This document shows positions 1 to 12,377 of a stretch of 12,453 nt of DNA, piece after piece. The translations under genes were made by a program, and so were the position numbers. Below the pieces are notes generated by a model that ran no database searches, was not told the origin of the DNA, and saw nothing but the letters and a program-made list of their open reading frames with translations. How positions within the stretch are numbered: the first letter of the stretch is position 1; the number at the start of each line of letters is the position of its first letter. Source of the DNA: a virus; the UHGV virus genome UHGV-0283832. One strand, written 5' to 3'.

Positions 1-345
1 ACCTGAAAAGGCGTTGCTTCAGGCATAGTAGTCTCCTGAGGTTTTATTAGAATCATTATGTTTGAGCGTAGCGTTGGTAACGCTACCAGGCGCGTGAATG
101 TTACCCCATTTTATGTATGGACATGTAGTGAAAACTACAACTTTGTCGTTCGCTTTGGCATCATCTTCATTATAAAGACGGAATTTTGCATCAGCTTCTC
201 ATCAGGAAAAACAACTAAAAAATCAATCACAATACTTGTGCATTTCTTTAAACAGTTTTTTAAAACTGACTCCGGGTATGGAGCTATGGGTATTTTCTGT
301 CCCCAATGCTTTTAACAGCAATTAATTTCATAGGATGAAAGCTTA

Positions 346-1460: not shown

Positions 1461-1485
1461 CGTATAACCAAACGTATAACTAAAA
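1461..1485. repeat. Integrase arm-type binding-site repeats (CGTATAAC), left arm
   Basis: CGTATAACCAAACGTATAACTAAAA here; nearly the same string CGTATAACTAAACGTATAACTAAAA occurs at ~12146-12170 beside the integrase gene, together with two inverted copies (AGTTATACG). Confidence 0.5.
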
Positions 1486-1874: not shown

Positions 1875-2123
1875 AGGCTGGTGGGTTTTACCTGTTCTGT
1901 AGGAGTGGTCATTATGGCCATCCCTTATATCGTCCGAATGCCGGACGAAGGCACACATCAACCGTAACGAAAATCGTTATGGTTGCCTTGATGGTCTGCG
2001 TGGTCATTATGACCATTCAGACAATGACCTTAATCAGAATTTTTCGCTAAAAAATGACGTTGACCACGTCGTCCGGAAAACACAAAATCCCGTCGATTTT
2101 TAATTAACGGTTAAACCGTCTTT

Positions 2124-2159
2124 TGTCACGGCGTGTCACTGGCTGTCACTCTCCGTCAC
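2124..2159. repeat. Four helically phased direct repeats of TGTCAC at 10-bp spacing
   Basis: TGTCAC at ~2124, 2134 and 2144, and GTCAC at ~2155, giving exact 10-bp periodicity. An ACGGTT-A-AACCGT palindrome lies just upstream at ~2107-2119. Confidence 0.35.
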
Positions 2160-2247
2160 GATTGGGCGTGGTGATTATCACCATTTAGAATCTAAAGGGT
2201 GACGCTTCCGGCCTCCTCAAATTGAGGTTTCCGAAAATATCAACCAG

Positions 2248-2430
2248 TTACCGCCGCAACCGCTCCGGCTTCTTCCAGTGGTACGTTATTTTCTCCTTCT
2301 CCCGATACATCTCAACGCGGCGACGGTAGGCCAGCAACTCAAGAACTCTGGTTCGTATGTTGCGCATATCCACGCCATTAAGCTGGATACCATCACGGCG
2401 GATTAATCCCAGTATTTCGGCTTCTGTCAT
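2248..2430 (-). CDS. Hypothetical small protein (60 aa), basic C-terminus
   Basis: ATG start with a G-rich Shine-Dalgarno (GGGGG about 5 nt upstream). Protein MTEAEILGLIRRDGIQLNGVDMRNIRTRVLELLAYRRRVEMYREKEKITYHWKKPERLRR. It sits directly beyond the cosQ side of cos copy A. No family recognised. Confidence 0.45.
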   Translation of the reverse strand: MTEAEILGLIRRDGIQLNGVDMRNIRTRVLELLAYRRRVEMYREKEKITYHWKKPERLRR

Positions 2431-2458
2431 TGTGCCCCCATCGCTCTGATAGTCTGGT

Positions 2459-2529
2459 GTCGTCGGGTCCTTCCTGGAATTATGGCCCGTTACGGGGCGG
2501 CGACCTCGCGGTTTTTCGCTATTTATGAG
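2459..2529 (+). other. Lambda-type cos site, copy A (cosQ-like, cosN, start of cosB)
   Basis: GGGTCCTTCC...GTTACG|GGGCGGCGACCT|CGCGGTTTTTCGCTATTTATGA. This is near-identical to the phage lambda cohesive-end region as I recall it (right end ...GGGTCCTTTCCGGTGATCCGACAGGTTACG, 12-nt cohesive end GGGCGGCGACCT, left end CGCGGGTTTTCGCTATTTATGAAAA). cosN is at ~2495-2506. Confidence 0.7.
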
Positions 2530-2543
2530 CTTTTTTAGAGGGA

Positions 2544-2701
2544 GGTTGTTGTTTAATTGTTTGTCATATCCATTTGATAACTAAGTAAAAATAAAGAGCA
2601 ATACAACAACCTGATAGTGTTTTTTTGATGCTAAAAATAAAAAAATGCTAATTGAATCAAATAGTTTTAAAAAAATACGTGGTTGTTGTATTGCGTATTT
2701 G
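2544..2701. repeat. cosB-like terminase-binding repeat triad (GGTTGTTGT...) with an A-tract-rich spacer
   Basis: GGTTGTTGTTTAATTG at ~2544; inverted CAATACAACAACC at ~2599-2611; direct GGTTGTTGTATTG at ~2681-2693. A-tract-rich DNA with a weak IHF-like AATCAAatagTTT lies between copies 2 and 3. The layout mirrors lambda cosB (R3-I1-R2-R1), but the repeat sequence differs from lambda R sites. Confidence 0.45.
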
Positions 2702-2723
2702 ATGGCGTAACAGAAAGTGATTT

Positions 2724-3164
2724 TTAACTTTGCTGTTCTGTAACGACTGATTGTTCCATGCTGGCACGGCGAACGCTTACGGCATGACGCCACCCAGCCA
2801 GAAAGCCAGCCATTTTATTTCGTGCCTTGCTCACATCTTCCGGTGAATAGCCGTAAATCTGCAAACCTTCATCAAATCGATGTTCTGTTTCTTCACTGGA
2901 GTACTCGTCACGCTCAGATGAAAGCAGCCTGGCAAACATAATTTTTTCCAGCGCACTGGTTTCTACGTGATATCTGATGGCCTCAAGACGGCTTTTACCT
3001 GAAGACCAAAGCAATGTATGCCCGATGTGATAACCGCCAGACTTTCCGCGATCCGCATTAAGATACGGCATCCCCTGTTTGGTCCATGCGCGAATAGTGG
3101 TTCTGTTAACCTTGAAATGTTCAGCTATTTCCTGCTGACTTACAAAACAAGCTTTATCAATCAT
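2724..3164 (-). CDS. Lambda Nu1-like (terminase small subunit N-terminal HTH) DNA-binding protein; candidate packaging-specificity / helper-packaging redirection factor
   Basis: N-terminus VSQQEIAEHFKVNRTTIRAWTKQGMPYLNADRGKSGG aligns with lambda gpNu1 NKKQLADIFGASIRTIQNWQEQGMPVLRGGGKG. ATG with AAGGT Shine-Dalgarno. At 146 aa it is shorter than Nu1 and no large terminase follows. Cos copy B lies immediately upstream, as cos lies before Nu1 in lambda. Confidence 0.75.
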   Translation of the reverse strand: MIDKACFVSQQEIAEHFKVNRTTIRAWTKQGMPYLNADRGKSGGYHIGHTLLWSSGKSRLEAIRYHVETSALEKIMFARLLSSERDEYSSEETEHRFDEGLQIYGYSPEDVSKARNKMAGFLAGWRHAVSVRRASMEQSVVTEQQS

Positions 3165-3221
3165 AATGTTACCTTAACTGCATGGTTAAATATTAATCAA
3201 GTGGTGGTGGTGTCACCTTCA

Positions 3222-3297
3222 CGGAAAAACGTCATAAATAGCGAAAACCCGCGAGGTCGCCGCCCCGTAACGGGTCCATATGCCGGAAAGGACCCGT
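3222..3297 (-). other. Lambda-type cos site, copy B (inverted relative to copy A)
   Basis: Reverse complement reads ACGGGTCCTTTCCGGCATATGGACCCGTTACG|GGGCGGCGACCT|CGCGGGTTTTCGCTATTTATGA. cosN reverse complement (AGGTCGCCGCCC) is at ~3254-3265. About 65 bp is near-identical to copy A in inverted orientation. Confidence 0.65.
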
Positions 3298-3325
3298 AAA
3301 AAAAGCCGGATTTCTCCGGCCTTAT
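3298..3325 (-). terminator. Rho-independent terminator of the morphogenesis operon
   Basis: On the minus strand: stem GCCGGA / TCCGGC with a 4-nt loop followed by a T-run, immediately after the stop of the 137-aa gene. Confidence 0.6.
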
Positions 3326-3326
3326 G

Positions 3327-3740
3327 TCAGATGGTTTTCAGTATGCGATCGACGTCGCCTTCATCGCCCTGGTTTCTGCCGTCGTATGCCATGCCGGGTG
3401 ATACGGCTTTCGGGCTGTGCATGTCCATAAAGTTTTCAAAGGCTGCGGTAAGCTCCGGCGCAACCTTTGGGCGCTCCTGCTCTATGGTCATGTTCAGGAT
3501 TTCACGAGCATTATCGACGCTAATACATGGCACGTTTGCCATTGCACGTAACAGCGGCTGATAGTCGTTATGTTCATGAAGCGCCATAATCGCATCAGCG
3601 CGCGGCTTGTCCTGCTCTTCCAGTTTGTTGAGTTGATATACGGCCTCGTAGGTTGATAAACCTCTGTCAGCCATTGCCCGCGCTTCTGCTTTAAATTTAC
3701 TCGCCAGCGGTAGCGCCATGATGCTTTCATTCGTTGCCAT
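3327..3740 (-). CDS. Hypothetical acidic protein (137 aa), last gene of the capsid operon
   Basis: ATG with GGGGA Shine-Dalgarno 4-5 nt upstream and natural composition (MATNESIMALPLASKFKAEARAMADRG...). The competing 99-aa ORF 3494-3793 in another frame is R/W-rich and rejected. No family recognised. Confidence 0.6.
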   Translation of the reverse strand: MATNESIMALPLASKFKAEARAMADRGLSTYEAVYQLNKLEEQDKPRADAIMALHEHNDYQPLLRAMANVPCISVDNAREILNMTIEQERPKVAPELTAAFENFMDMHSPKAVSPGMAYDGRNQGDEGDVDRILKTI

Positions 3741-3752
3741 CGTTTCCCCTGC

Positions 3753-4040
3753 TTATCGCGCCAGCGGCTGAACGGATACGCCAGAACCCGCAAAGGCGGC
3801 GCATTTTTTCGCGTCAGTGTCGGCGCTCTCAGGCCAGTTTACGGCGGCGATATTAAATATCCCCGTCTTGTAACACTGTGCTGATTTCTGCTTTGACGTG
3901 TCCACGGGGTACGAGGTCAGATAAACAGCCTTCCCAGATTCCTGACCATCCCACGGCTTAAACTCGCCATTGTCCGCCAGCATCAGCGGCAAAATGTACC
4001 AGCGTCGTGGATACCTGCTGACTGCCTGCAAATAACTCAA
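3753..4040 (-). CDS. Hypothetical protein, start uncertain (TTG at 4040 or ATG at ~3983)
   Basis: ORF fills the gap between the capsid gene and the 137-aa gene. Its stop overlaps the Shine-Dalgarno of the downstream gene, suggesting operon coupling. No convincing Shine-Dalgarno for either start. Confidence 0.35.
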   Translation of the reverse strand: MSYLQAVSRYPRRWYILPLMLADNGEFKPWDGQESGKAVYLTSYPVDTSKQKSAQCYKTGIFNIAAVNWPESADTDAKKCAAFAGSGVSVQPLAR

Positions 4041-4067
4041 TGTATGGAGTGTCCATAGAATCCCCCG

Positions 4068-5123
4068 TTAAGCAATTTTGACGGTAACAAATTTGCGAAT
4101 ATCTGCCGGAACCGGCTGCGGTGCGCTGTGCGTCTGCACGTACTCAATCGCCGGATCGCCGTCCTCAATCCAGTTTTTCGGGTAGTACATGTTTTGCGTT
4201 GCGCCTGTTCTTACCGCTTCCTGATCCATAATCGCACCATAGGCCACCAGCCCTTTGTTGTTGGTGTTGCCCAGGACCAGTAAATCAGGCTCAAGGAAAT
4301 ATTTTTCTGTGCCGTCGCTGTCGGCGTATTTGCCGGCATAGACGATAAGGGCAATATCGCCCAGATAGCCTTTAAAGCTCACCACTTCGCCCAGGTTTTT
4401 ACAGGCCAGTTCTGCGGCGGATTCTGAACCACGGGAAAGATCGTACAGCTCACGGAATTTTTTAAAGCTGCGTAACGTGCGCCATACCTCAACGCCCATA
4501 ATCATGACGTTTGCGGGGCAACCAGCCTGATCAGCATAAAGCTCGATGTCATAGATTGGATCGTGTGTTTCCTTATCTGCCTCTGACCACTTTTTACCCG
4601 GTCCCTGTCTGGCGATATTTTTACTTGGGATCTTCCAGTCGATTTCATAGCGTTCTATGCCTTCGCCCTCAATGATGTTTTTTCCGGTCGTTATCGCATT
4701 CACCGCCAGCCATTCCACGCGCGCTTTAATGGCGTTTATCTGGCGGCGCATGTTGCCAGTAATCAGGCGCATACGGCGGTAGGTAGGGTCGTTAAGCTGT
4801 GCCGGATCTTCTCCAGCCATGCGCATTATTGTTTTTAATGGATCGATTTCGTGTTTTGGCTTCATGTAGCCAGGGCGAATAATGCTGGTTTCGTACCCTT
4901 TATCGCGCTGAACCTGGCTACCAACCATAGGCGAACAAAACGCCGACATAGTGACTTCTTCAATATCCAGGTTATCTAACATGATGTCCTGTGTGTTGAA
5001 TGTCGCCACGTTCGGGAAAAACAGCGCGGTAAACAGCGGACTAAATTTAAATTCCGCAATATCCTCGCGATTCAGGTACGCGAAAAGCTGGTGTGTGTTA
5101 AGTGCCATTGCGTTGACTGCCAT
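4068..5123 (-). CDS. Major capsid protein, lambda gpE-like (HK97 fold)
   Basis: 351 aa with collinear motifs matching lambda gpE across the whole length: FKFSPLF, PGYMKPKHE, EDPAQLNDPTYRRMR, WSEADKETHDP, DIELYA, RSFKKF, RGSESA, KNLGEVVSFKGYLGDIALIVYAGKY, FLEPDLLVLGNT, YPKNWIEDGDPAIEY, QTHSAP. Start overlaps the upstream ORF stop (TAATG). Confidence 0.85.
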   Translation of the reverse strand: MAVNAMALNTHQLFAYLNREDIAEFKFSPLFTALFFPNVATFNTQDIMLDNLDIEEVTMSAFCSPMVGSQVQRDKGYETSIIRPGYMKPKHEIDPLKTIMRMAGEDPAQLNDPTYRRMRLITGNMRRQINAIKARVEWLAVNAITTGKNIIEGEGIERYEIDWKIPSKNIARQGPGKKWSEADKETHDPIYDIELYADQAGCPANVMIMGVEVWRTLRSFKKFRELYDLSRGSESAAELACKNLGEVVSFKGYLGDIALIVYAGKYADSDGTEKYFLEPDLLVLGNTNNKGLVAYGAIMDQEAVRTGATQNMYYPKNWIEDGDPAIEYVQTHSAPQPVPADIRKFVTVKIA

Positions 5124-5329
5124 TATTCACCCCCATGAGTCTGATTTATGCCCAGCGCCGCGCGTAAATAGGAGCGTACCTGCCAGCCTGTTGACGGCTC
5201 AACCATCGCCAGCGGATCAAGTCCTGCCGCAATGCCTGCTTTTACGTTCTGCTGGTGGCGTTCCTTGAGCGCCTTCACGATGTCGGGGCTTATGTACACC
5301 GAAACACCGCCTTTTCTCTCTTCAGCCAT
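5123..5329 (-). CDS. Hypothetical small protein (68 aa), first gene of the capsid operon
   Basis: ATG with AGAGGA Shine-Dalgarno; translationally coupled to the capsid gene. No family recognised; not similar to lambda gpD or Nu3 as far as I can recall. Confidence 0.5.
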   Translation of the reverse strand: MAEERKGGVSVYISPDIVKALKERHQQNVKAGIAAGLDPLAMVEPSTGWQVRSYLRAALGINQTHGGE

Positions 5330-5364
5330 AGTAAGAAATTCCTCTTCGACTTAAAAAATCATAA

Positions 5365-5413
5365 CTGGATGTTCATCCAGCTCTGATTATAATCAGGATT
5401 GCATTTTGTGCAA
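5365..5413 (-). promoter_or_regulatory. Candidate sigma70 promoter with overlapping palindromic operators for the capsid operon
   Basis: Minus strand reads TTGCAC - 16 nt - TATAAT. The -10 lies inside the perfect 14-bp palindrome CTGATTATAATCAG (~5383-5396). CTGGATG-TT-CATCCAG (~5365-5380) lies at about +1, and TTGCA-ttttg-TGCAA at ~5399-5413. Confidence 0.35.
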
Positions 5414-5493
5414 TGATATTGAGTTACATTGCAAATTATGAAATGATTATCCCGATCATGTGTGTCAGTGCACCAAAAAACCTCATATGCAAA

Positions 5494-5531
5494 AGCCCGA
5501 TAAGCCACCTCTGACCTTATCGGGCTTTTTT
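5494..5531. terminator. Stem-loop terminator (10-bp stem GCCCGATAAG / CTTATCGGGC followed by T7)
   Basis: Long perfect stem followed by TTTTTTT on the plus strand and flanked by an A-run on the other side. Probably insulates the capsid promoter from the replication operon. Confidence 0.5.
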
Positions 5532-5537
5532 TGGGCG

Positions 5538-5559
5538 CAAAAAAGCCGGATTGCTCCGG
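5538..5559 (-). terminator. Rho-independent terminator of the replication operon
   Basis: Minus strand: GCCGGA-GCAA-TCCGGC followed by TTTTTT, about 25 nt after the PerC-like stop. Confidence 0.55.
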
Positions 5560-5583
5560 CTGTGTGGTGTGGTTCTGGTATTC

Positions 5584-5832
5584 CTACTCTGCTAATTTGC
5601 TCAGCCCCATGTCTGCGTAAGTGCGATTTACTGCATTTCTCAGGTCTGCATAGTTCTCCGTTGGCGGCTCCGGTGGCCTCTGTGCCTTCCTGGAACATTC
5701 CAGCCGTCGCATCGTAACCTGATGCCGTTCCTTGTCTGTCTCCACCAGTTGCATGACTTCACCCCATCGTGCCGCCGCCCTCCGGTAAAAGCCTTTTGCC
5801 TCTAGTTCCTCCGCTATGCGGTCATGTACCAT
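5584..5832 (-). CDS. PerC-family transcriptional regulator-like protein
   Basis: Taken from the internal ATG (MVHDRIAEELEAKGFYRRAAARWGEVMQ...) with GGTGAGG Shine-Dalgarno. The AE-LE-KG-YRRAA-RW signature resembles PerC/Pch-type regulators. The track ORF extends further 5' to 5952, but that part overlaps the SSB gene. Confidence 0.55.
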   Translation of the reverse strand: MVHDRIAEELEAKGFYRRAAARWGEVMQLVETDKERHQVTMRRLECSRKAQRPPEPPTENYADLRNAVNRTYADMGLSKLAE

Positions 5833-5842
5833 CCTCACCCCC

Positions 5843-6253
5843 TCAGAACGGAATATCATCACCGTAAGGGTCATCGCCTCCCGCTGGTGGCTGATTACCC
5901 TGTGTGCCTGTGGTTTTGCGTCTGTTCCCGCCAGGACGTGCCGCACGGGCACTGATTACGCTGTCTGCAATAACCTGATAACCCTGCCGCGTTTCCCCGT
6001 TCTGTCCGGTCCACTGGCTGACCTGCATCGTGCCGGATACGCTGGCAACGTCGCCTTTTTGATGTTTAGCCAGGAAGTCGGCCTGCTTACCAAATGCGAT
6101 GACCGATAGCCATAACGTCGCCTGCCCATCCTGCGCCTGACTACATGGCAACGATACCGCCATACGCGCCAGCGTCATCGGTGTGCCCTTGCTGGTCTGT
6201 TTTACCTGCGGGTCGTCCACCAGCCGCCCGTAAGCGGCTATCTGTGCTGTCAT
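5843..6253 (-). CDS. ssb: Single-stranded DNA-binding protein (short SSB)
   Basis: OB-fold-like N-terminal region (IAAYGRLVDDPQV...LARMAVSL...LWLSVIAFGKQADFLAKHQKGDVASVSGTMQVSQWTGQNGETRQGYQVIADSV), Gly/Pro-rich linker and the canonical acidic tail ending DDIPF. ATGA overlap with the upstream ORF. Confidence 0.8.
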   Translation of the reverse strand: MTAQIAAYGRLVDDPQVKQTSKGTPMTLARMAVSLPCSQAQDGQATLWLSVIAFGKQADFLAKHQKGDVASVSGTMQVSQWTGQNGETRQGYQVIADSVISARAARPGGNRRKTTGTQGNQPPAGGDDPYGDDIPF

Positions 6254-6528
6254 GATTCCACCTCTCCGGTTTTAACGTTGATGGTTGTTACCTGTTCCGC
6301 TTCGGCAATCTCCCGCTCTGTCAGCGTGGCAAAATTTGCCGCCGTCGTGGTCATGAATGCGCTTATCAGTTCGGGATGTGCTTTCGCGTATCCTTCCCCC
6401 GCGTGGCGGTCTATCGTTCTGATTGCCACCTTTAAAGCGTGCTCTGTCATGTCTAACGCGCGATATTTCGGTTCTGTTCTGTCTCTGCGTTTTTTGAGTG
6501 ATTTATTAAATTTCCCTGAAGTGTGCAT
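6250..6528 (-). CDS. Hypothetical protein (92 aa) between the iteron origin and ssb
   Basis: ATG with a G-rich Shine-Dalgarno about 14 nt upstream; translationally coupled to ssb. No family recognised. Confidence 0.5.
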   Translation of the reverse strand: MHTSGKFNKSLKKRRDRTEPKYRALDMTEHALKVAIRTIDRHAGEGYAKAHPELISAFMTTTAANFATLTEREIAEAEQVTTINVKTGEVES

Positions 6529-6585
6529 ATTTATTTTTACCCCCTCGTTTAAAAAGTTTTGAGTTGTGCCTCCCCTTGTCTACCT

Positions 6586-6806
6586 TATCTACCTTAGTGG
6601 CCCTCATACCAGTAATGGCGCGGCTTTCAGCGGGGTAGAGTGCTTTTATCCACTATCTACCCCGTGTCTACCTCCCTGTCTGATTCAGGTAAAATCAGGT
6701 AGAGAGGGTAGATAGTGGGTAGACAGTAAAAAAAAGCTATCTACCTAACTTAATGCACTGAATTAAATGTATTTTTCTTTACTCAGGTAGACAGGGTAGA
6801 CAGCAA
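6586..6806. repeat. Iteron-type replication origin (GGTAGACAG family repeats plus AT-rich segment)
   Basis: At least 11 copies of GGTAGA(C/T)AG or its complement CT(G/A)TCTACC in both orientations (for example ~6586, 6597, 6634, 6651, 6665, 6697, 6706, 6717, 6738, 6786, 6795), with tandem GGTAGACAGGGTAGACAG at 6786-6803. AT-rich stretch at ~6727-6780 and a DnaA-box-like TTATCCACT at ~6646-6654. Immediately downstream of the primase gene. Confidence 0.75.
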
Positions 6807-6816
6807 TTACAAAAAA

Positions 6817-8571
6817 TTATAAAAACGCGTCGCACTCGTCTGTTGTTATTGCGTTAGTCTGCGTTACCCCCTTAACTTTCCGCGTAATATATTCATGTCC
6901 GTAAACTTTTGCGGCAGGCTTCATAGCCTTTCCAAAGTCATTTACGTTTAGCGGTTTGCTCCTGCCTGCGTATGCCATAAACGCCAGATAGACGCGGTAA
7001 AGGCTGTTCCTGGTCGTGTACTTCACTGAATCGCCACCGCCCCCCATCATCAGGCCGCGCGCTTCCTCCAGAAAATTCAGGAACTGGCAAAACTCAATAA
7101 CCGGATCCGTCTGTTGCTTTATTGCCAGTGCTTCATCACCGTCACGCTGTTCCAGTAGTAAAGCCCGTGCCTTCTCAGGGGCGGTAAAGTTCGCCAGCAA
7201 TCGGCGGATAATGACAGGGATTTCAGCCGCAATCTTTTCCGGTAGCTCCCTGTCTTTTTCGGCCTCACTGACGATATTGTCGAAACGGAAAATTACGCGA
7301 CGACGTGACACACCTCCGGCCCGTTCGGTGAATATCATCGGATTGTTATTGGTTGCCAGCACCACCGCCCTGATTACCGCCGTAAAACGCTTTTCATATT
7401 TCGGGTTAATTTCCACGGGGTCGCCGCCCGTGATTTTCTTGATGCCCGTTCCTTCGCCTGTATATTTCGGCTGGTCAGCCAGGACGATAAGACGACTCCC
7501 GACAACCTGCGCACGTCCACCAGCATCATCAAGCGATGTCATTTCAGCGCTTACCGTGTTCTGTTTCCCTGCCAGAAGGCTGGCTATGTGCGTGAATGTA
7601 CTTTTACCGCTCCCGCCATCTCCGGTGGCCTCAATAAACATCTGCCAGTCGTACCGGTTCGCCATAATCATGTACAGCGCGGCACATATACGCATCATCT
7701 TGCGCGGGTCTTTTCCGGCTGCGTGCTCAAGCCATTTATGAAAGTTTGGCGCGTTATCGCGGATGTTCTCCCCTGGTGCTGGTGGCGTGTACTCAATGCC
7801 GTTGTGCGTGGTGATCCAGCTCTCCGGCGTGTGCGGGGAAAATTCCCCCGTTTTCAGGTCAAGCGCACCATTGGCGAACGGCAGCAAATCGCCGGACGGC
7901 TCGCCCATTGGTTCGGCAATAACTTTTAACGCTTCCACGGCGTTATTGATTACGCGCTTGCTGAAAGTGGCCCTGTGCTCTGAATAGATCGCCACCATTT
8001 CGCGGCTAAGTTCCATTGTGCTGACCGGACACCATACCCCGCCGCGCCATACGTGAACGATTTCACTTTCAGGATGTACGCAAACGCCATCAAAGCGATC
8101 GGCAAGCAGCTGCGCGCGCTCACTGTCCGCCATCTGCGAAAGTTGCGCCTTTTGCTTTACCGGAAGCTCAATGACCAGACCATCAGAAAGATTCTGGCGC
8201 TCACGGGCCAGATATTCGCGCCAGTTCTCCACCTTCTGACCGTGCATACCCTCAGGATAAAAATTTGCATCCTGTACGCCTGCCGCCGCCAGCTTCTGAC
8301 CAATCGCCTTTATCATTACTGGCGCAAGATATCCGGCCCTGAATATGCGCACGGATTTTCTGCCTTCCGGCACAATTTGCAGCTTATCCAGTTCGGATAA
8401 CTGCTGCTCCCCAAGCCACACAGGAGGCTCATTATCTCCGGCCATACGCGCGTCATGTTCCTGCCATTGTTTTGCGTGTGACCAGGCATCACTACCCGCA
8501 AAAATAATGACTTCTGTTTCTTTGTGTTTTATGCCGCGTGACTGCTGTTTTACGTTCGGTGCCAGTTTCAT
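6817..8571 (-). CDS. Replication initiator: P4-family primase / helicase-type NTPase (pri-rep)
   Basis: 584 aa. Walker A GDGGSGKST (encoded at ~7596-7630) with the surrounding FIEATGDGGSGKSTFTHIASLLAG typical of the phage/plasmid P4-family primase C-terminal NTPase domain. An N-terminal ~300 aa domain precedes it. ATGA overlap with the upstream ORF; followed by the iteron array. Confidence 0.85.
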   Translation of the reverse strand: MKLAPNVKQQSRGIKHKETEVIIFAGSDAWSHAKQWQEHDARMAGDNEPPVWLGEQQLSELDKLQIVPEGRKSVRIFRAGYLAPVMIKAIGQKLAAAGVQDANFYPEGMHGQKVENWREYLARERQNLSDGLVIELPVKQKAQLSQMADSERAQLLADRFDGVCVHPESEIVHVWRGGVWCPVSTMELSREMVAIYSEHRATFSKRVINNAVEALKVIAEPMGEPSGDLLPFANGALDLKTGEFSPHTPESWITTHNGIEYTPPAPGENIRDNAPNFHKWLEHAAGKDPRKMMRICAALYMIMANRYDWQMFIEATGDGGSGKSTFTHIASLLAGKQNTVSAEMTSLDDAGGRAQVVGSRLIVLADQPKYTGEGTGIKKITGGDPVEINPKYEKRFTAVIRAVVLATNNNPMIFTERAGGVSRRRVIFRFDNIVSEAEKDRELPEKIAAEIPVIIRRLLANFTAPEKARALLLEQRDGDEALAIKQQTDPVIEFCQFLNFLEEARGLMMGGGGDSVKYTTRNSLYRVYLAFMAYAGRSKPLNVNDFGKAMKPAAKVYGHEYITRKVKGVTQTNAITTDECDAFL

Positions 8572-8855
8572 TTTTTACCCCCTGCGACCAGCATTTCACG
8601 AATTTTGCGGATATGACTTGCTGCACGTTTCTGATTTACGGCTTTACGATGGCCCACCAGCGTGAAATCACGCCGGAACTGATAAACAGGCATCACGCAG
8701 TCATATTCGTAGCCATCACGGCGGTAAGTGATGCGCCGTTCTGCCACGCCTTTTATCGTTACCGTGCCGCCATAGTTATCCCGGAAAATATCGCCGGGGC
8801 GGATTTCAGGCTGAGAGAAGTCACTGGCAGTAAAGCCAGAATTTTTCTTTTTCAT
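8568..8855 (-). CDS. Hypothetical protein (95 aa), translationally coupled to the primase
   Basis: ATG start with AGGAAA upstream; stop overlaps the primase start (ATGA). No family recognised. Confidence 0.55.
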   Translation of the reverse strand: MKKKNSGFTASDFSQPEIRPGDIFRDNYGGTVTIKGVAERRITYRRDGYEYDCVMPVYQFRRDFTLVGHRKAVNQKRAASHIRKIREMLVAGGKK

Positions 8856-8860
8856 GGTTT

Positions 8861-9061
8861 TTATTTTCCTGTCAGTGATTCAAGTTTTATTCCGGCACGA
8901 ATACAGGCCTCAGAAAAAAAAGCCAGAGAACCAACAACCTCATTATTTCTAAGGCGGCATTGTGATTTCACTTTCCCTTTATCGAGAAATATCAAAACGC
9001 GTCCCGTATAATCTGACGGCACATTAAGAACTACAGGTAAGTGCGCTTCATAATTGTGCAT
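8861..9061 (-). CDS. Hypothetical small protein (66 aa)
   Basis: ATG with GGGGG Shine-Dalgarno about 8 nt upstream. Start lies within the last 14 nt of the upstream 69-aa gene and the stop is 5 nt before the next ATG, consistent with a tightly coupled operon. Could still be spurious. Confidence 0.35.
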   Translation of the reverse strand: MHNYEAHLPVVLNVPSDYTGRVLIFLDKGKVKSQCRLRNNEVVGSLAFFSEACIRAGIKLESLTGK

Positions 9062-9257
9062 GGTGCGCCCCCTGACGAATACGGGCGGCGAATACCATCA
9101 CGCAGCCATCAGGAGATTGCTGACGCGCTTCCTGTTCGCTGGTGGCCTCAATGGTAATCACGCGCGGTTGTGCCGTGCTCAGGGCGATAAAACGCCAGAT
9201 GTATTTATTCAGGTTGTACGAGTCCCGCCCTTGCGGGTGTATGGTATAATTTCTCAT
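9048..9257 (-). CDS. Small protein (69 aa), possibly Icd-like (host cell division inhibitor-like)
   Basis: Internal ATG of the long track ORF 9048-10124, with GAGG Shine-Dalgarno 5 nt upstream. Protein MRNYTIHPQGRDSYNLNKYIWRFIALSTAQPRVITIEATSEQEARQQSPDGCVMVFAARIRQGAHHAQL. The Icd-like call rests on a vague memory of similar small proteins in P4-like islands, so it is weak. Confidence 0.4.
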   Translation of the reverse strand: MRNYTIHPQGRDSYNLNKYIWRFIALSTAQPRVITIEATSEQEARQQSPDGCVMVFAARIRQGAHHAQL

Positions 9258-9346
9258 AGCTGCCTCGATAATCTTGCTATCGTTGGTGGTTAGAAGCCCC
9301 GTTACTGCTCCTACAGTGCGGGGTTTCGTCGTTTCTGCACCTTGCA

Positions 9347-9440
9347 TTAACAAGGTGTAAGTAACTTTATTTATAGGTGGCTTACATGTCAATGCTTTTA
9401 TGTAAGACTTTTTATGTGTATATTGTCTTACACTTTCATT
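9347..9440. promoter_or_regulatory. Divergent promoter/operator region between the replication operon and the plus-strand cassette
   Basis: Palindrome CACCTTG-cattaa-CAAGGTG at ~9347-9366; inverted repeat CTTACAT ... ATGTAAG at ~9391-9417 and a further CTTACA copy at ~9436; TATATT -10-like element at ~9429-9434. Confidence 0.35.
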
Positions 9441-9453
9441 GAGAGGATTACAG

Positions 9454-9759
9454 ATGGCTACAGGTTCAAAAAACGCAAAATCACAATCACTGACAGCTCG
9501 GATCCCGCATGATGTTATTGAAGGCATGGAATCCGTAAAACTGGACGGTGAAAGCAACGCCGGATTCATAGTAACCGCCATGCGCGGTGAAATCGCCCGC
9601 CGCCAGGCAGAAGGAAGCGGAGAAAACCCCCTGATTTCTTCGCTCGATGCACTGGCGCAGGTGGAAAAACTCGGAATCAAAGCCGCCGAGGAGATCGGGC
9701 AGCTCGTCACTGTCGCACGTGAAGAACTCCAGCGCCGCAAGACCAAAGAACCAGAGTAA
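9454..9759 (+). CDS. Ribbon-helix-helix-like small DNA-binding protein (101 aa)
   Basis: ATG at 9454 with GAGAGGA Shine-Dalgarno 6 nt upstream (the track ORF starts earlier at a TTG). The N-terminal segment SLTARIPHDVIEGMESVK fits the strand-helix pattern of RHH (CopG/Arc/ParD-like) proteins; the C-terminal half is helical and charged. The RHH call is pattern-based only. Confidence 0.55.
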   Translation: MATGSKNAKSQSLTARIPHDVIEGMESVKLDGESNAGFIVTAMRGEIARRQAEGSGENPLISSLDALAQVEKLGIKAAEEIGQLVTVAREELQRRKTKEPE

Positions 9760-9816
9760 TCACCATCAGCGCCGTGGTGTAAGGTATTACGGCGCATTGC
9801 TATGCAGGACAACACA

Positions 9817-9990
9817 ATGACCGATAAAGAATTGACCAAAACATTATCACCGGCACGGAAAAGACGGCGCAGAAAGATAGAGCATGAATCAGAAAGATTC
9901 GCGCCATGTGCTTTTGCCCTTGAGCAATTCCTTAAAGAATACAGGGAAAAGCGCTCATTGCAGGTATGGCAACGAACTGAACCAGACTGA
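9817..9990 (+). CDS. Hypothetical highly basic mini-protein (57 aa)
   Basis: ATG at 9817 with AGGA Shine-Dalgarno 7 nt upstream (the track ORF starts at an earlier ATG at 9802 that lacks one). Protein MTDKELTKTLSPARKRRRRKIEHESERFAPCAFALEQFLKEYREKRSLQVWQRTEPD. Followed by a plus-strand terminator. Confidence 0.45.
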   Translation: MTDKELTKTLSPARKRRRRKIEHESERFAPCAFALEQFLKEYREKRSLQVWQRTEPD

Positions 9991-10085
9991 TTGCATTGCC
10001 CACCAGCCTGATAGCGGCTATCATCCCCGTGCTTATGTTTGGGATCATATACACATAAGGCGCAGCGGGTTAATTGTTCAGAAAG

Positions 10086-10112
10086 GCGGCTCCATATCGG
10101 GGCCGCTTTTTT
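10086..10112 (+). terminator. Rho-independent terminator of the plus-strand cassette
   Basis: GC-rich stem (GCGGC ... GCCGC) followed by TTTTTT about 100 nt after the 57-aa ORF stop. Confidence 0.5.
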
Positions 10113-10138: not shown

Positions 10139-10345
10139 TTAAGCAGCCGTTCCGCGTGCTTCCTGTTCGCGTTCTTTCTGCCAGGCCAACACATCATCCT
10201 CATACCATCCGCGACGGCGTAAACCAACGCGAAAACCCTGCGGAAATTCTCCGGCGTTGATCATGCTTTGCAGCGTGCTGTCTGCCTTGATGTGGATAAT
10301 TTTTTTTACTTCCTGGCGAAAGATAATTTTTCTGATTGCTTCCAT
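10139..10345 (-). CDS. alpA: AlpA-family excisionase / transcriptional regulator
   Basis: 68 aa, ATG with AAGGT Shine-Dalgarno. The C-terminal FPQGFRVGLRRRGWYEDDVLAWQ matches the AlpA/Xis-like winged-helix signature (FP-P-KLG-R--GW---E---W). Confidence 0.8.
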   Translation of the reverse strand: MEAIRKIIFRQEVKKIIHIKADSTLQSMINAGEFPQGFRVGLRRRGWYEDDVLAWQKEREQEARGTAA

Positions 10346-10840: not shown

Positions 10841-12082
10841 CTACACGGCTCGGATACCCCTTTTACCACTGGCGAGGGTTACGCCCGTCGCCGCAGCCTC
10901 GACAAATTCGCCCCACCAGCGCATCAGCACGATGCGTTTTTCTATGTAGTTGCTCCGGTTGTATGCCCGTCTAACTTCGTTGGTGTCGACGTGGGCAAGT
11001 GCCGCCTCTATTACGTCCGGCTCGAATCCTTCCTCGTTCGCTGCTGTGCTGAATATGGCGCGTAATCCATGAGACACCAGCACGCCAGCGAATCCCATAC
11101 GCCGCAATGCTGCGTTAGCTGTCTGGCTGTTCATCGGCTGCTGTGGGTCTTTCAGACTTGGGAAAACGTAATTGCGGTGGTGGCTGATTGGTTTCATGGC
11201 CTCCAGCACCGCCATAGCCTGACCGGAAAGCGGGATAACGTGATCCCTGCGCATCTTCATGCGTCCGGCAGGTATCGTACATTGCTTCGCGTCCAGGTTG
11301 ATTTCATCCCACCGCGTTGATGACGCTTCGGCGGGACGGGTTACGGTCAGTAACTGCCATTCAATCAGTAATCTGGTCTGCCGTTCTGTTGCCGATACTG
11401 ATAAAGCCTGCATAAGCTCCGGCAGCTGTTCGGGGCGGATTGTTGGCATATGTTTTTTTACAGGTGAGGGAAACGCCTTACGCACATTCATAGCCGGATT
11501 GGCATCAATCAGCCCACTGTTGGCGGCGTAATCCATTACCTCATTAACGCGCTGTAAAACCCGCTTGAGTGTTTCCAGGTTGCCGCGCTCCTTGATGGGT
11601 GTAAGCACTTCAACGAACCTTCGGGCGGTGAGGGTATCTATTGGCGTGTTGCCGATGAACGGGAATACATATTTATCCAGCGAACGCCAGATGTCTTTAA
11701 TCGTGTTGGGGGCCAGATTCTGGCTGATTTTCACCTGGTACCATGCCGCCGCCACATTTTCGAACGTGTTCCCTTGTCTTCGGGCCTCTGTCTCTCTTTT
11801 TTGCCTCTCGTGGTCCTGCGGGTCAGTTCCGGCACTGATTAACGTCCTGTACTCGCTACGGCGTTTTCTGGCATCAGCCAGGGAAACATCTTCAAGCGAT
11901 CCAAAACTCAGCAATATTCTTTTTTTGTCCGATGGTCGGTAGTAGGAAAATCTCCAGAGTTTTGATCCAGACGGTTTGACCAGGAGAAAAAGCCCTCCGC
12001 CGTCCTGCAGGGTGTACTCCTTTTGCGCTGGTCTGGCTGCTTTGATCTGCACTGTGGTTAATGGGTGTGTTTTTCTCGCCAT
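10841..12082 (-). CDS. int: Tyrosine recombinase / integrase, P4-type (with N-terminal arm-binding domain)
   Basis: Track ORF starts at a GTG (12100); the likely start is the ATG 6 codons in (MARKTHPLTTVQIKAARPAQKEYTLQDGGGLFLLVKPSGSKLWRFSYY...), a typical N-terminus for P4-like integrases. Length ~413 aa. Sits adjacent to the tRNA 3' end and arm-type repeats. Confidence 0.9.
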   Translation of the reverse strand: MARKTHPLTTVQIKAARPAQKEYTLQDGGGLFLLVKPSGSKLWRFSYYRPSDKKRILLSFGSLEDVSLADARKRRSEYRTLISAGTDPQDHERQKRETEARRQGNTFENVAAAWYQVKISQNLAPNTIKDIWRSLDKYVFPFIGNTPIDTLTARRFVEVLTPIKERGNLETLKRVLQRVNEVMDYAANSGLIDANPAMNVRKAFPSPVKKHMPTIRPEQLPELMQALSVSATERQTRLLIEWQLLTVTRPAEASSTRWDEINLDAKQCTIPAGRMKMRRDHVIPLSGQAMAVLEAMKPISHHRNYVFPSLKDPQQPMNSQTANAALRRMGFAGVLVSHGLRAIFSTAANEEGFEPDVIEAALAHVDTNEVRRAYNRSNYIEKRIVLMRWWGEFVEAAATGVTLASGKRGIRAV

Positions 12083-12117
12083 ATGTCTATGATTCCACAC
12101 GAAAAAACAGGGGTTTA

Positions 12118-12170
12118 GTTATACGGCTTTAGTTATACGTCAGCCCGTATAACTAAACGTATAACTAAAA
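12118..12170. repeat. Integrase arm-type binding sites (right arm)
   Basis: Two AGTTATACG copies (~12118, ~12131) followed by two inverted CGTATAACTAAA copies (~12146, ~12158). The same 9-mers occur at 1461-1485 in the left arm. Confidence 0.5.
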
Positions 12171-12300: not shown

Positions 12301-12377
12301 TGGTCGGCACGAGAGGATTTGAACCTCCGACCCCCGACACCCCATGACGGTGCGCTACCAGGCTGCGCTACGTGCCG
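12301..12377 (-). tRNA. proL: tRNA-Pro (anticodon GGG)
   Basis: Reverse complement reads CGGCACGTAGCGCAGCCTGGTAGCGCACCGTCATGGGGTGTCGGGGGTCGGAGGTTCAAATCCTCTCGTGCCGACCA: 77 nt, cloverleaf-compatible, anticodon loop T-GGG-GT, encoded CCA. It matches the E. coli proL-type tRNA as I recall it. Confidence 0.9.

What the first reader, a model, noticed from the sequence alone, without database searches (positions are those of the whole stretch)
2544..3164. Candidate packaging-specificity module: non-lambda cosB repeats plus a truncated Nu1-like HTH protein
The 146-aa protein shares the N-terminal DNA-binding signature of lambda gpNu1 (RTI-W-QGMP) but is shorter, and no large terminase follows. The adjacent repeats (GGTTGTTGTATTG, two direct and one inverted, with an A-tract spacer) differ from lambda R sites. 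This fits a satellite that keeps helper-compatible cosN but carries its own cosB plus a small DNA-binding factor to divert the helper terminase to satellite DNA. Satellites of this general type are described as redirecting helper packaging, but I cannot confirm from sequence that this is the same protein family.
Basis: partly seen in the sequence, partly recalled or inferred. Interest (0 to 1): 0.6.

Follow-up and report, generated by a model that had tools for sequence, protein, structure and literature searches.

The report
Satellite packaging gene with two cos sites
The small protein is the already-described Rpp factor that phage-parasitic islands of E. coli use to steal a helper phage's DNA-packaging enzyme, but the repeats beside it are most likely not Rpp's target: they match the packaging signal of a different phage group and belong to a second, oppositely oriented cos site.

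Summary
ORF 2724-3164 (-) encodes 146 aa, and GGTTGTTGT occurs three times (2544 +, 2603 -, 2681 +) against 0.08 expected.

The protein is a near-identical allele of RppA from the island EcCICFT073. It matches the RppC crystal structure (6HLK) at E=5.7e-31. Rpp binds the helper phage's small terminase (TerS) and redirects packaging to the island, which is published biology.

The gene sits between two inverted cos sites (72-nt inverted repeat, 2464-2535 / 3225-3296).
- **cos2** carries the repeats. Its first box, at bp 48-59 from the cohesive end, is identical to the mutationally defined R3 of phage N15.
- The whole triad is homologous to the three-box cosB of "Monarch-type" lambdoid prophages, where it directly precedes an N15-like terS.

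Most likely cos2 lets helpers of that specificity package the island without Rpp; this is inferred, not tested. Rpp itself is known. The assignment of cos2 to a phage cosB family appears not to be published. Interest is moderate to low.

The parts
2464..2535 (+). cos2 arm of the 72-nt inverted repeat: cosQ core GGGTCCT at 2465-2471, lambda-type cosN, then the TATTTATGA block
   Evidence: Inverted repeat I1. Matches the published EcCICFT073 cos2 up to TATTTATGA, and matches the cos of prophage 95JB1.
2495..2506 (+). cos2 cohesive-end sequence GGGCGGCGACCT (bp 1-12 of cos2)
   Evidence: Exact lambda cohesive-end string located by script.
2542..2559 (+). R3 box of cos2 (GAGGTTGTTGTTTAATTG; bp 48-65 from the cohesive end)
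   Evidence: bp 48-59 is identical to N15 bp 48-59. Those are the positions scrambled in the N15 m1/m2 mutants, which lower yield 7- and 100-fold (PMC4669245). Invariant in island and prophage copies.
2567..2579 (-). Candidate IHF site (I1 analogue) between R3 and R2: TATCAAATGGATA, one mismatch to WATCAANNNNTTR
   Evidence: The TTGATAA core is conserved in all copies. Such matches are not enriched over chance in the window, so this is a candidate only.
2598..2612 (-). R2 box of cos2, inverted (reads GGTTGTTGTATTGC on the - strand; bp 104-118)
   Evidence: ACAACAACCT is invariant in 8 of 8 aligned copies.
2655..2667 (+). Second IHF-like site between R2 and R1 (AATCAAATAGTTT)
   Evidence: The ATCAAAT.GTTT block is conserved. 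Candidate only.
2680..2694 (+). R1 box of cos2 (TGGTTGTTGTATTGC; bp 186-200)
   Evidence: In prophage homologues the terS start codon follows about 25 nt later. In the window the rpp stop codon lies there instead.
2724..3164 (-). rpp: 146-aa RppA-type redirecting-phage-packaging protein, with an N-terminal wHTH and a C-terminal dimerisation region
   Evidence: PDB 6HLK/6HN7 RppC, E=5.7e-31 over residues 2-125. Residues 1-50 are identical to the published RppA. 85% identical to the Rpp of island L008, whose N-terminus resembles published RppB. PHROG 57 hit over residues 7-47.
3186..3218 (-). cosB of cos1. The proposed R3-PICI is AGGTGACACCACCACCAC (bp 48-65, 3201-3218), followed by the invariant TTGATTAATATTTAA. 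This is the published Rpp-responsive side.
   Evidence: Matches the EcCICFT073 cos1 of Fig. S1A as far as the machine-read text allows. cosB swap experiments are. The R3-PICI proposal is in PMC9026076. ACCACCACCACTTGATTAATATTTAA is invariant in the 4 aligned cos1 copies (3 distinct islands) with two cosN types. CACCACCACCAC lies upstream of rpp in 23 of 24 IMG/VR loci.
3189..3216 (-). Promoter-like site (GTGACA, 16 nt, AATATT) overlapping R3-PICI; possible rpp promoter
   Evidence: Consensus scan only. Not evidence of function.
3225..3296 (-). cos1 arm of the inverted repeat: cosQ core at 3289-3295, cohesive end at 3254-3265; the rpp ATG falls at bp 102
   Evidence: The bp-102 spacing equals that stated for PICI-C in PMC9026076.

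Best explanation
The window holds an EcCICFT073-type phage-inducible chromosomal island (PICI). Its packaging module, about 2464-3296, consists of rpp flanked by two inverted lambda-type cos sites that carry different cosB elements.

(1) Rpp, at 2724-3164 on the - strand, is an RppA allele. By homology to published work it heterodimerises with lambda/phi80/21-type helper TerS. That blocks recognition of the phage cosB and directs the terminase to cos1, whose cosB lies just upstream of rpp (3186-3218).

It is a complete R3 (forward) - I1 - R2 (inverted) - R1 (forward) array of the N15/"Monarch" specificity class, homologous to the cosB that directly precedes terS in a family of E. coli lambdoid prophages.

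Inferred mechanism: a helper whose TerS has the N15/Monarch DNA-binding domain binds these boxes directly. It nicks cosN2 and packages island concatemers in the opposite direction, with no need for Rpp. The island would therefore hold two independent packaging signals for two classes of helper.

Shown here: the identity of Rpp, the two inverted cos sites, homology of the triad to a phage cosB, its exact R3 spacing, and conservation of the boxes. Inferred: binding by Monarch-type TerS, Rpp-independence, and the benefit to the island.
For: **Rpp**
- RppC structure hit at E=5.7e-31.
- The N-terminal 50 aa are identical to RppA, and the published F121R mutagenesis primers for gene c1503 match the gene apart from the engineered codon, by eye.
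- The proposed DNA-contact residues R21, T22, R25 and K29 are present (read).

**cos1**
- Matches the published cos1 as far as the machine-read supplement allows; the rpp ATG is at bp 102.
- Published swaps show that only the cosB of cos1 responds to RppA.

**Triad**
- 3 copies against 0.08 expected.
- cos2 bp 48-59, GAGGTTGTTGTT, equals N15 R3, which was defined by mutations that lower yield 7- and 100-fold.
- Region 2536-2723 has 74-78%-identical homologues in about 240 E. coli genomes. In the three I inspected it lies directly upstream of a 168-aa terS plus terL.
- Those TerS share residues 1-45 almost exactly with N15 gp1.
- All three boxes keep their position and orientation.
- Feiss et al. 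describe exactly such a Monarch group: the N15 recognition helix with a tripartite cosB and an IHF site.
- In 78 IMG/VR contigs carrying R3...R2, 54 have a Monarch-type terS downstream, 21 have a convergent rpp or rpp remnant, and 3 end at the contig edge.

**Selection on the boxes**
- Box columns are 42/46 invariant against 70/130 for spacers in 9 distinct island copies (p=2e-6).
- With prophage copies included, the figures are 36/46 against 54/125 (p=5.5e-5).
- The cos1 plus Monarch-type cos2 layout persists in islands with a different cosN type and an Rpp only 85% identical (resembling RppB).
- Of 24 IMG/VR loci found through rpp, 22 carry a downstream triad with 3 of 3 boxes, of one of two phage types.

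**Rpp is unlikely to read these boxes**
- There is no BLASTP similarity between Rpp and Monarch-type TerS.
- The lambda TerS positions where mutations escape Rpp (Y50, E65) are not conserved in Monarch-type TerS.
Against: - Nothing was tested functionally for this cos2.
- In EcCICFT073, whose cos2 carries a different cosB, deleting cos2 raised lambda- and phi80-mediated transfer. cos2 can therefore be costly with those helpers.
- Genomes carrying this island do not significantly more often hold a Monarch-type prophage (4/35 against 264/5391, p=0.09).
- The one helper-embedded island examined (TUM9812) sits in a prophage with a 21/lambda-like TerS, not a Monarch-type one.
- No phage record in the GenBank phage collection searched (INPHARED) carries the full triad; only N15-like phages have R3 alone. 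Active Monarch-type helpers are therefore inferred from prophages and IMG/VR contigs.
- Box conservation in islands could partly reflect repeated re-acquisition from prophages. In addition, some island copies were picked through a pattern containing R3 and R2.
Confidence: 0.7

Rival explanations
1. One reading: the GGTTGTTGT triad is the satellite's own cosB, read by the 146-aa protein (alone or with TerS) to divert helper terminase.
For: - The triad lies next to the 3' end of the gene and behind a helper-type cosN at R3-like spacing.
- Rpp is a wHTH DNA-binding protein that does confer a new cosB specificity.
- The cosB of this particular cos2 has never been tested with Rpp.
Against: - Published swaps assign RppA responsiveness to the cosB of cos1, whose sequence is retained upstream of rpp here.
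- The triad occurs with the same architecture in prophages that have their own terS and no rpp.
- It also occurs in islands that have lost rpp.
- Closely similar RppA alleles (97-99% identical) are paired with a completely different cos2 triad (CATGTCCGG boxes) in 11 of 24 loci, so the triad does not co-vary with the Rpp DNA-binding domain.
- The Rpp recognition helix (RTTIRAWTKQ) is unlike that of N15/Monarch TerS (SVQAFDKW).
Confidence: 0.07
2. cos2 with its triad is a passenger: a relic of recombination between the island and a Monarch-type prophage across the shared cosN. It would be neutral or mildly harmful to the island.
For: - Homology with prophage cos-cosB stops where terS would begin.
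- The cos2 cassette and the rpp 3' end are mosaic: the 144-aa and 146-aa alleles track the cassette type.
- rpp remnants and flipped segments show frequent rearrangement here.
- Deleting cos2 improved lambda/phi80 transfer of EcCICFT073.
- There is no significant co-residence with a cognate prophage.
Against: - 22 of 24 loci found through rpp keep a second cos with all three boxes intact.
- The boxes are far more conserved than the spacers among diverged island copies.
- The dual layout survives a change of cosN type in both arms.
- A costly relic should decay or be lost.
Confidence: 0.15
3. cos2 acts as a decoy or interference site rather than a route of transfer. It would titrate, or cause abortive cutting by, terminase of Monarch-type phages, protecting the host or favouring the island. 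Alternatively it mainly serves, with cos1, as a recombination or inversion substrate.
For: - PICIs commonly interfere with helpers.
- An inverted cos about 760 bp from cos1 would create short cut fragments.
- One natural inversion of the segment between the cos sites was seen.
Against: - A complete cosQ-cosN-cosB in a replicating concatemer is by itself sufficient for cos-to-cos packaging, as with cosmids and the cos-plasmid transfers. Transfer is therefore the simpler expectation.
- No data show interference.
Confidence: 0.08

Closest known systems
EcCICFT073 RppA with its cos1 and cos2 (Fillol-Salom et al. 2018, 2019; PMC6092414, PMC6739421)
   Same: - Same island type: int, alpA, pri, SSB, PerC, gpE-like capsid gene, decoration gene, then rpp.
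- Rpp is identical over the first 50 aa.
- cos1 matches as far as the machine-read text allows, with rpp starting at bp 102.
- cos2 is the same up to TATTTATGA.
   Different: - The cosB of cos2 is a different cassette: GGTTGTTGT boxes of N15/Monarch type here, CATGTCCGG boxes in CFT073.
- The Rpp C-terminus differs (146 aa against 144 aa).
- The decoration gene is frameshifted here.
- The authors reported finding no phage cosB in the island. Here both cos2 types are traced to prophage cosBs that precede terS.
RppC and the RppC-TerS(1-98) complex, PDB 6HLK / 6HN7
   Same: Homologous over residues 2-125 (E=5.7e-31). This covers the wHTH and the helices used for homodimerisation and for heterodimerisation with TerS.
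   Different: RppA and RppC are reported as about 44% identical. RppC is 153 aa with a basic tail. No structure of this allele exists.
cosB of phage N15 and of the "Monarch" prophage group (Feiss et al. 2015, PMC4669245)
   Same: - The R3 sequence and its distance from the cohesive end are identical to N15.
- The tripartite R3 / R2 (inverted) / R1 layout, with an IHF-like site, matches the description of Monarch.
- It is homologous to prophage cosBs whose TerS carries the N15 recognition region.
   Different: - It sits in a satellite, is followed by the 3' end of a convergent rpp instead of terS, and is paired with an inverted second cos.
- N15 itself has only R3 plus a remote rR2.
- I could not read the Monarch sequence itself, because the figure is not held.
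lambda cos (cosQ-cosN-cosB with R3-I1-R2-R1) and gpNu1
   Same: - Same cosQ core, the same 12-nt cohesive end, and the same cosB architecture.
- The Rpp N-terminus is a Nu1-like wHTH.
   Different: - The R-box sequences are unrelated to those of lambda.
- Rpp lacks the C-terminal TerL-binding part of Nu1.
cos-type satellites that carry the helper's cos (P4 with P2; SaPIbov5 and SaPIbov4)
   Same: The satellite is packaged because it carries a helper-cognate cos. SaPIbov4 is also reported to have two putative cos sites.
   Different: Those satellites have no Rpp-type specificity switch. Here one island combines a cognate-cos route and an Rpp route.

Membership tests
Rpp (redirecting phage packaging) proteins of Gram-negative PICIs | N-terminal winged-HTH domain homologous to that of lambda-like TerS | tested here: met
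   PHROG 57 (terminase small subunit) at E=4.2e-8 over residues 7-47. Weak PDB hits to lambda and related TerS DNA-binding domains, plus a sub-threshold Pfam Phage_Nu1 match.
Rpp (redirecting phage packaging) proteins of Gram-negative PICIs | Full-length homology to RppA/B/C, including the C-terminal dimerisation helices, and a length of about 135-154 aa without a TerL-binding tail | tested here: met
   6HLK RppC at E=5.7e-31, query residues 2-125. Residues 1-50 are identical to RppA. 85% identical to the Rpp of island L008, whose N-terminus resembles published RppB. Length is 146 aa.
Rpp (redirecting phage packaging) proteins of Gram-negative PICIs | Conserved proposed DNA-contact residues (R21, T22, R25, K29; basic wing residues at 39 and 41) | tested here: met
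   Read from the translation: N20-R21-T22-T23-I24-R25-A26-W27-T28-K29, and R39-G40-K41.
Rpp (redirecting phage packaging) proteins of Gram-negative PICIs | Gene lies directly downstream of a cosQ-cosN with a non-phage cosB, inside a PICI | tested here: met
   Cohesive end at 3254-3265 and the ATG at bp 102. cos1 matches the published cos1.
Rpp (redirecting phage packaging) proteins of Gram-negative PICIs | Binds helper TerS, blocks phage packaging and promotes packaging from cos1 | not testable with these tools
   Known for RppA and RppC from PMC6739421. Inferred here from near-identity.
Phage small terminase (gpNu1 / Pfam Phage_Nu1) | Full-length Nu1 architecture, including the C-terminal oligomerisation and TerL-binding region | tested here: not met
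   Pfam Phage_Nu1 scores 14.7 bits against a cut-off of 30 and covers only residues 8-40. The PHROG 57 match covers only residues 7-47 of a 199-position profile. No terL gene follows.
Complex lambda-like cosB of N15/Monarch packaging specificity | R3 box with the N15 sequence at bp about 48-60 from the cohesive end | tested here: met
   cos2 bp 48-59, GAGGTTGTTGTT, equals N15 bp 48-59.
Complex lambda-like cosB of N15/Monarch packaging specificity | Three R boxes, with R2 inverted relative to R3 and R1 | tested here: met
   Boxes at 2544 (+), 2603 (-) and 2681 (+). The same layout is seen in prophage homologues.
Complex lambda-like cosB of N15/Monarch packaging specificity | IHF site between R3 and R2 | tested here: inconclusive
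   A one-mismatch IHF consensus lies at 2567-2579, and its core is conserved. Such matches are not enriched over chance: 17 found against 13.4 expected.
Complex lambda-like cosB of N15/Monarch packaging specificity | Lies immediately upstream of the cognate terS | tested here: not met
   In the window, R1 is followed by the stop codon of the convergent rpp. In prophage homologues the terS ATG follows R1 by about 25 nt. The element is therefore a cosB detached from its terS.
Complex lambda-like cosB of N15/Monarch packaging specificity | Bound by N15/Monarch-type TerS and required for packaging | not testable with these tools
   Inferred from sequence identity to the N15 R3, and from co-occurrence with TerS proteins that share N15 gp1 residues 1-45.
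Gram-negative PICI (EcCICFT073 type) | int, alpA and pri/rep genes in one direction; about 10-15 kb; a specific attachment site; no complete virion module | tested here: met
   - int at 10841-12100, alpA at 10139-10345 and the pri gene at 6817-8571 (called by position in the EcCICFT073 layout; not scanned here), with SSB and PerC, all on the - strand.
- Only a gpE-like capsid gene, a broken gpD-like gene and a Nu3-like ORF are present.
- A 16-nt direct repeat at 1470 and 12155, next to tRNA-Pro, implies about 10.7 kb.

The most novel reading that the evidence does not exclude
cos2 of Rpp-encoding islands may not be a redundant or degenerate site. It may be an exchangeable cosB cassette cognate to a particular helper phage. 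At least two types exist: the N15/Monarch type here, and an O157-prophage type in EcCICFT073.

On this reading the island has a second, Rpp-independent packaging route for helpers whose TerS Rpp cannot capture, while cos1 with Rpp handles lambda/21/phi80-type TerS.

Because the two cos sites are inverted, the roughly 760-bp segment between them can flip. This could happen by homologous recombination, or by terminase cutting at both cosN sites and religation of identical sticky ends. Such flipping would shuffle cassettes between islands and phages.
Probability: 0.45. Interest if true: 0.55.

Novelty: new member of a known kind. Interest (0 to 1): 0.35.

Why it matters
The Rpp mechanism is already established, so the protein itself adds nothing new. 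The useful points are these.

- **A correction.** The conspicuous repeats are not Rpp's target.
- **An explanation for cos2.** Published work reported no recognisable phage cosB in the island's cos regions and showed only that cos2 is not needed for lambda/phi80-mediated transfer. Here cos2 carries bona fide phage cosB arrays of other specificity classes. This predicts a wider helper range than lambda, phi80 and 21, one that can be read from sequence.
- **Practical consequences.** It bears on predicting which prophages mobilise virulence-carrying islands, and on engineering PICI- or cosmid-based delivery particles.
- **A resource for cosB biology.** It provides natural material for studying cosB specificity in the N15/Monarch group.

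Tried and rejected
- **GenBank phage collection (INPHARED) search with 2460-2725**. Phage records match only cosQ-cosN. One N15-like Enterobacter phage extends through R3. No isolated phage carries the whole triad, so the phage origin had to be shown through prophages and IMG/VR contigs.
- **Co-residence of the island with a Monarch-type prophage.** 4/35 against 264/5391, p=0.09. Not significant, so not used as support.
- **Helper-embedded island in TUM9812.** I expected its host prophage to have a Monarch-type terS. It has a 21/lambda-like TerS with different R boxes. This argues only that cos2 is not aimed at the resident helper.
- **IHF consensus scan.** Near-consensus sites fall where expected, but the window as a whole shows no enrichment. 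They are kept as candidates only.
- **Chance repeat.** Rejected.
- **Replication-origin iterons or an rpp terminator as the role of the triad.** Rejected because the array is homologous, box for box, to prophage cosBs.
- **The 70-aa ORF at 2581-2793 over the triad.** Treated as a mechanical ORF, because it overlaps rpp and the conserved non-coding boxes.
- **The Virology 2015 N15 paper (PMC4461450).** Not held. The Monarch sequence itself could therefore not be compared, only its published description.
- **Costly protein-database, structure-prediction and fold searches.** Not run, because the PDB sequence hit and the RppA identity already settled the protein.
Full report
**1. What is in the sequence**

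The ORF at 2724-3164 on the - strand is ATG-started and encodes 146 aa. It contains NRTTIRAWTKQGMP, which resembles IRTIQNWQEQGMP of lambda gpNu1. No large-terminase gene exists in the window.

GGTTGTTGT occurs exactly three times in the 12.4-kb window, at 2544 (+), 2603 (-) and 2681 (+). Shuffles give 0.08 expected, and none of 200 shuffles reaches three. The two distal copies extend to GGTTGTTGTATTG; the first continues TTTAATTG.

Each arm holds a cosQ core (GGGTCCT) and the lambda cohesive-end sequence GGGCGGCGACCT. One cohesive end is at 2495-2506 on the + strand and the other at 3254-3265 on the - strand.

**2. The surroundings**

The window is a phage-inducible chromosomal island (PICI). 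All of the following lie on the - strand:
- integrase, 10841-12100;
- AlpA, 10139-10345;
- primase (pri; called by its position in the EcCICFT073 layout, not scanned here), 6817-8571;
- DUF4222, SSB and PerC genes;
- a gpE-like capsid gene, 4068-5123;
- a gpD-like gene;
- a 137-aa ORF.

tRNA-Pro lies at 12301-12377. A 16-nt direct repeat at 1470 and 12155 suggests an element of about 10.7 kb. The left flank is a decayed yejO.

**3. The protein**

It matches the crystal-structure sequence of RppC (6HLK/6HN7, "redirecting phage packaging protein") at E=5.7e-31 over residues 2-125. It matches lambda-type TerS DNA-binding domains only weakly.

Its first 50 residues are identical to RppA of EcCICFT073 as printed in Fig. 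S1 of PMC6739421. The published primers used to mutate gene c1503 (F121R) match the gene apart from the engineered codon, by eye. It is 85% identical to the Rpp of another island (L008, strain TUM9812), whose N-terminus resembles published RppB.

PHROG 57 (terminase small subunit) matches residues 7-47 at E=4.2e-8. Pfam Phage_Nu1 is below its threshold.

So the protein is a member of the Rpp family and not a terminase subunit. Published work shows three things:
- Rpp heterodimerises with helper TerS;
- this blocks packaging of phage DNA;
- it promotes packaging from the island's cos1.

**4. Which cos is which**

The - strand from 3296 down to about 3080 corresponds to the published EcCICFT073 cos1, allowing for errors in the machine-read supplement text. 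It runs cosQ, cosN...CGTGAAGGTGACACCACCACCACTTGATTAAT..., then the rpp ATG. The ATG is at bp 102 from the cohesive end, the spacing given for PICI-C by Murialdo and Feiss.

Their proposed R3-PICI (bp 48-65) is 3201-3218. ACCACCACCACTTGATTAATATTTAA is invariant in the four aligned cos1 copies (three distinct islands), although these have two different cosN types. CACCACCACCAC lies upstream of rpp in 23 of 24 IMG/VR loci.

The published experiments (plasmid transfer, swaps of cosB between cos1 and cos2, and a phi80 chimera) place RppA responsiveness in the cosB of cos1.

The + strand arm at 2464-2535 corresponds to the published cos2 up to TATTTATGA and then diverges completely from EcCICFT073.

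**5. What the repeats are**

Counted from the cos2 cohesive end, the boxes fall at bp 48-65 (forward), 104-118 (inverted) and 186-200 (forward). This is the R3/R2/R1 pattern of lambda-like complex cosBs.

bp 48-59, GAGGTTGTTGTT, is identical to bp 48-59 of phage N15. N15 R3 was defined by two block mutations. The m1 mutation scrambles GAGGTT at bp 48-53, and m2 scrambles GTTGTT at bp 54-59. [quoted passage not shown] An N15-like Enterobacter phage shows the same R3 at the same distance, with terS starting at bp 89.

Region 2536-2723 has homologues of 74-78% identity in about 240 of 5,426 complete E. coli genomes. In the three I opened, the homologue lies in a lambdoid prophage between the lysis genes and a 168-aa terS, followed by terL, the head-tail joining gene and the portal gene. 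Alignment shows all three boxes in the same positions and orientations. The terS ATG follows R1 by about 25 nt, exactly where the window instead has the stop codon of the convergent rpp.

Those TerS proteins share residues 1-45 almost perfectly with N15 gp1 and are 46% identical overall. This is what Feiss et al. call the Monarch group: the N15 recognition helix and R-site identity, but a tripartite cosB with an IHF site.

In IMG/VR, 78 contigs carry R3...R2. Of these, 54 have a Monarch-type terS downstream, 21 have a convergent rpp or rpp remnant, and 3 end at the contig edge. The array therefore occurs in two contexts only: as a phage cosB, and as the cos2 of an island.

**6. Is the array maintained in islands?**

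- Among nine distinct island copies, 42 of 46 box columns are invariant against 70 of 130 spacer columns (p=2e-6).
- With prophage copies included, the figures are 36/46 against 54/125 (p=5.5e-5).
- Islands whose Rpp is only 85% identical (resembling RppB), and whose two cos arms both carry a different cosN type, keep the same pair of cosBs.
- Among the 24 IMG/VR loci with near-full-length rpp, found through rpp alone and so unbiased for cos2, 11 have the Monarch-type triad and 11 have the CFT073-type triad. Each has all three boxes. Two have neither.

Caveat: part of the island sample was selected with a pattern that contains R3 and R2.

**7. The EcCICFT073 cos2 is also a phage cosB**

Its CATGTCCGG boxes and spacers match, at about 86-90%, a region found in more than 1,100 E. 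coli genomes. In the O157:H7-type prophage examined, that region lies between cosN and a terS with a different N-terminus (VATQTEVARHLSLTDRQL...). In an intact example the terS is annotated and is followed by terL.

The authors stated that they could not identify a phage cosB in the island. I found no paper in the searchable library that assigns cos2 to a phage cosB family. One preprint notes a 258-bp cos-region identity between a helper-embedded satellite and its helper.

**8. Mechanism**

Shown:
- an RppA allele;
- cos1 with the published Rpp-responsive cosB;
- cos2 with a complete N15/Monarch-type cosB, in inverted orientation.

Inferred: helpers whose TerS carries the N15/Monarch DNA-binding domain bind R3, R2 and R1, nick cosN2 and package island concatemers without Rpp. 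Helpers of lambda/phi80/21 type are captured by Rpp and sent to cos1.

Indirect support for two separate routes:
- Rpp and Monarch-type TerS share no detectable similarity.
- The lambda TerS positions where mutations escape Rpp (Y50 and E65) are not conserved in Monarch-type TerS.
- In TUM9812 the island sits inside a prophage whose TerS is 21/lambda-like and whose cosN type matches the island. cos1 with Rpp would serve that helper, and cos2 would serve others.

Against:
- there is no functional test;
- deleting cos2 improved lambda/phi80 transfer of EcCICFT073;
- there is no significant co-residence with Monarch-type prophages;
- no isolated phage with the full triad exists in the GenBank phage collection searched (INPHARED).

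**9. Rivals**

The reasons are the published swaps, the presence of the triad in rpp-less prophages and rpp-less islands, and the pairing of closely similar RppA alleles (97-99% identical) with either cassette.
- A "relic" reading remains possible, because this region is clearly recombinogenic. It does not fit well with the intact boxes in 22 of 24 islands.
- A decoy or interference role cannot be excluded.

**10. Verdict**

The protein and the general hijacking logic are already known. The window is a new member of the EcCICFT073/Rpp island family.

The modestly new point is that cos2 is a phage-cognate cosB cassette that can be exchanged between islands and phages.

Noticed in passing
L009 2920-3530 vs L011 2420-3030 (equivalent to window 2464-3296): Two rpp-less islands at the yejO site carry, between inverted cos sites, the Monarch-type triad, an 85-nt rpp 3' remnant and the CFT073-type triad. 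The whole segment between the cos sites is flipped in STEC2018-607 relative to strain 135 and to the window, so the segment between the two cosN sites inverts in nature. Three further genomes (L013-L015) have the window's orientation.
   Followed up: partly
L008 2925-2990 and 3650-3730; L012 2425-2490 and 3150-3230; L006 about 3920-3990: Some islands and prophages use a different cosN type (CACCG-N13-ACGCGCAAAAACGCGC). Its central 13 nt differ between cos1 and cos2 of the same island and between genomes, while cosQ and both cosB types are kept. Why the core is so variable is unexplained.
   Followed up: no
EcCICFT073 cos2 (Fig. S1A of PMC6739421); L010 2440-2665; L121 2501-3174: The cosB of the published EcCICFT073 cos2 (three CATGTCCGG boxes) is about 86-90% identical to the cosB of O157:H7-type prophages, where it lies directly upstream of a terS that begins VATQTEVARHLSLTDRQL. 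The original papers reported finding no phage cosB in the island.
   Followed up: partly
window 2724-2760 (rpp 3' end), with L095-L117: The Rpp C-terminus co-varies with the adjacent cos2 cassette. The 146-aa allele (…QSVVTEQQS) goes with the Monarch-type triad, and the 144-aa RppA goes with the CFT073-type triad. This points to a recombination breakpoint inside the 3' end of rpp.
   Followed up: partly
window 3753-4066 (- strand): The gpD-like head-decoration gene is frameshifted. The N-terminal MDTPYIELFAGSQQV… is in one frame and …PLMLADNGEFKPWDG… in another. About 32 nt are missing near 3975-3989 relative to intact 111-aa homologues.
   Followed up: partly
window 3327-3740 (- strand): The 137-aa ORF between the decoration gene and cos1 matches the C-terminal part of a head-maturation-protease family (PHROG 53, positions 494-567 of 583, E=1.5e-9). 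It may therefore be a Nu3-like scaffold remnant. One RefSeq record calls a homologue a "head-tail connector".
   Followed up: no
window 2248-2430 (- strand): This 60-aa ORF next to the cosQ side of cos2 is an in-frame 33-codon deletion version of a 93-aa protein (PHROG 1561, function unknown) that is conserved at this position in related islands.
   Followed up: no
window 3298-3325 and 3189-3216 (- strand): A GC-rich hairpin followed by a T-run (GCCGGAGAAATCCGGCTTTTTTT on the - strand) follows the 137-aa gene just before cosQ1. I read it from the sequence; the terminator scan did not list it. A sigma-70-like promoter match overlaps R3-PICI. If both are real, rpp is transcribed from within cos1 and could be autoregulated.
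   Followed up: no
L045 (IMGVR_UViG_3300045988_152974, 11,098 nt): This metagenome contig has a 119-nt terminal direct repeat and is colinear with window 2000-10112. It is probably a circular or concatemeric form of a closely related island that carries the same rpp and the Monarch-type cos2.
   Followed up: partly
window 1470-1485 and 12155-12170; 12301-12377; 1-1520: A 16-nt direct repeat (AAACGTATAACTAAAA) is the candidate att pair, giving an island of about 10.7 kb between tRNA-Pro(GGG) and a decayed yejO autotransporter gene. That gene lacks about 630 nt relative to the copy in strain 135.
   Followed up: partly
L008 + L016 (E. coli TUM9812, NZ_CP128926.1 2822052-2842000): An island with an Rpp 85% identical to the window's (resembling RppB), the same cos1/cos2 layout, is inserted in the terL gene of a lambdoid prophage (a helper-embedded satellite). 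The prophage's own cosB uses AGATCC…TTCT boxes and a 21/lambda-like TerS.
   Followed up: partly
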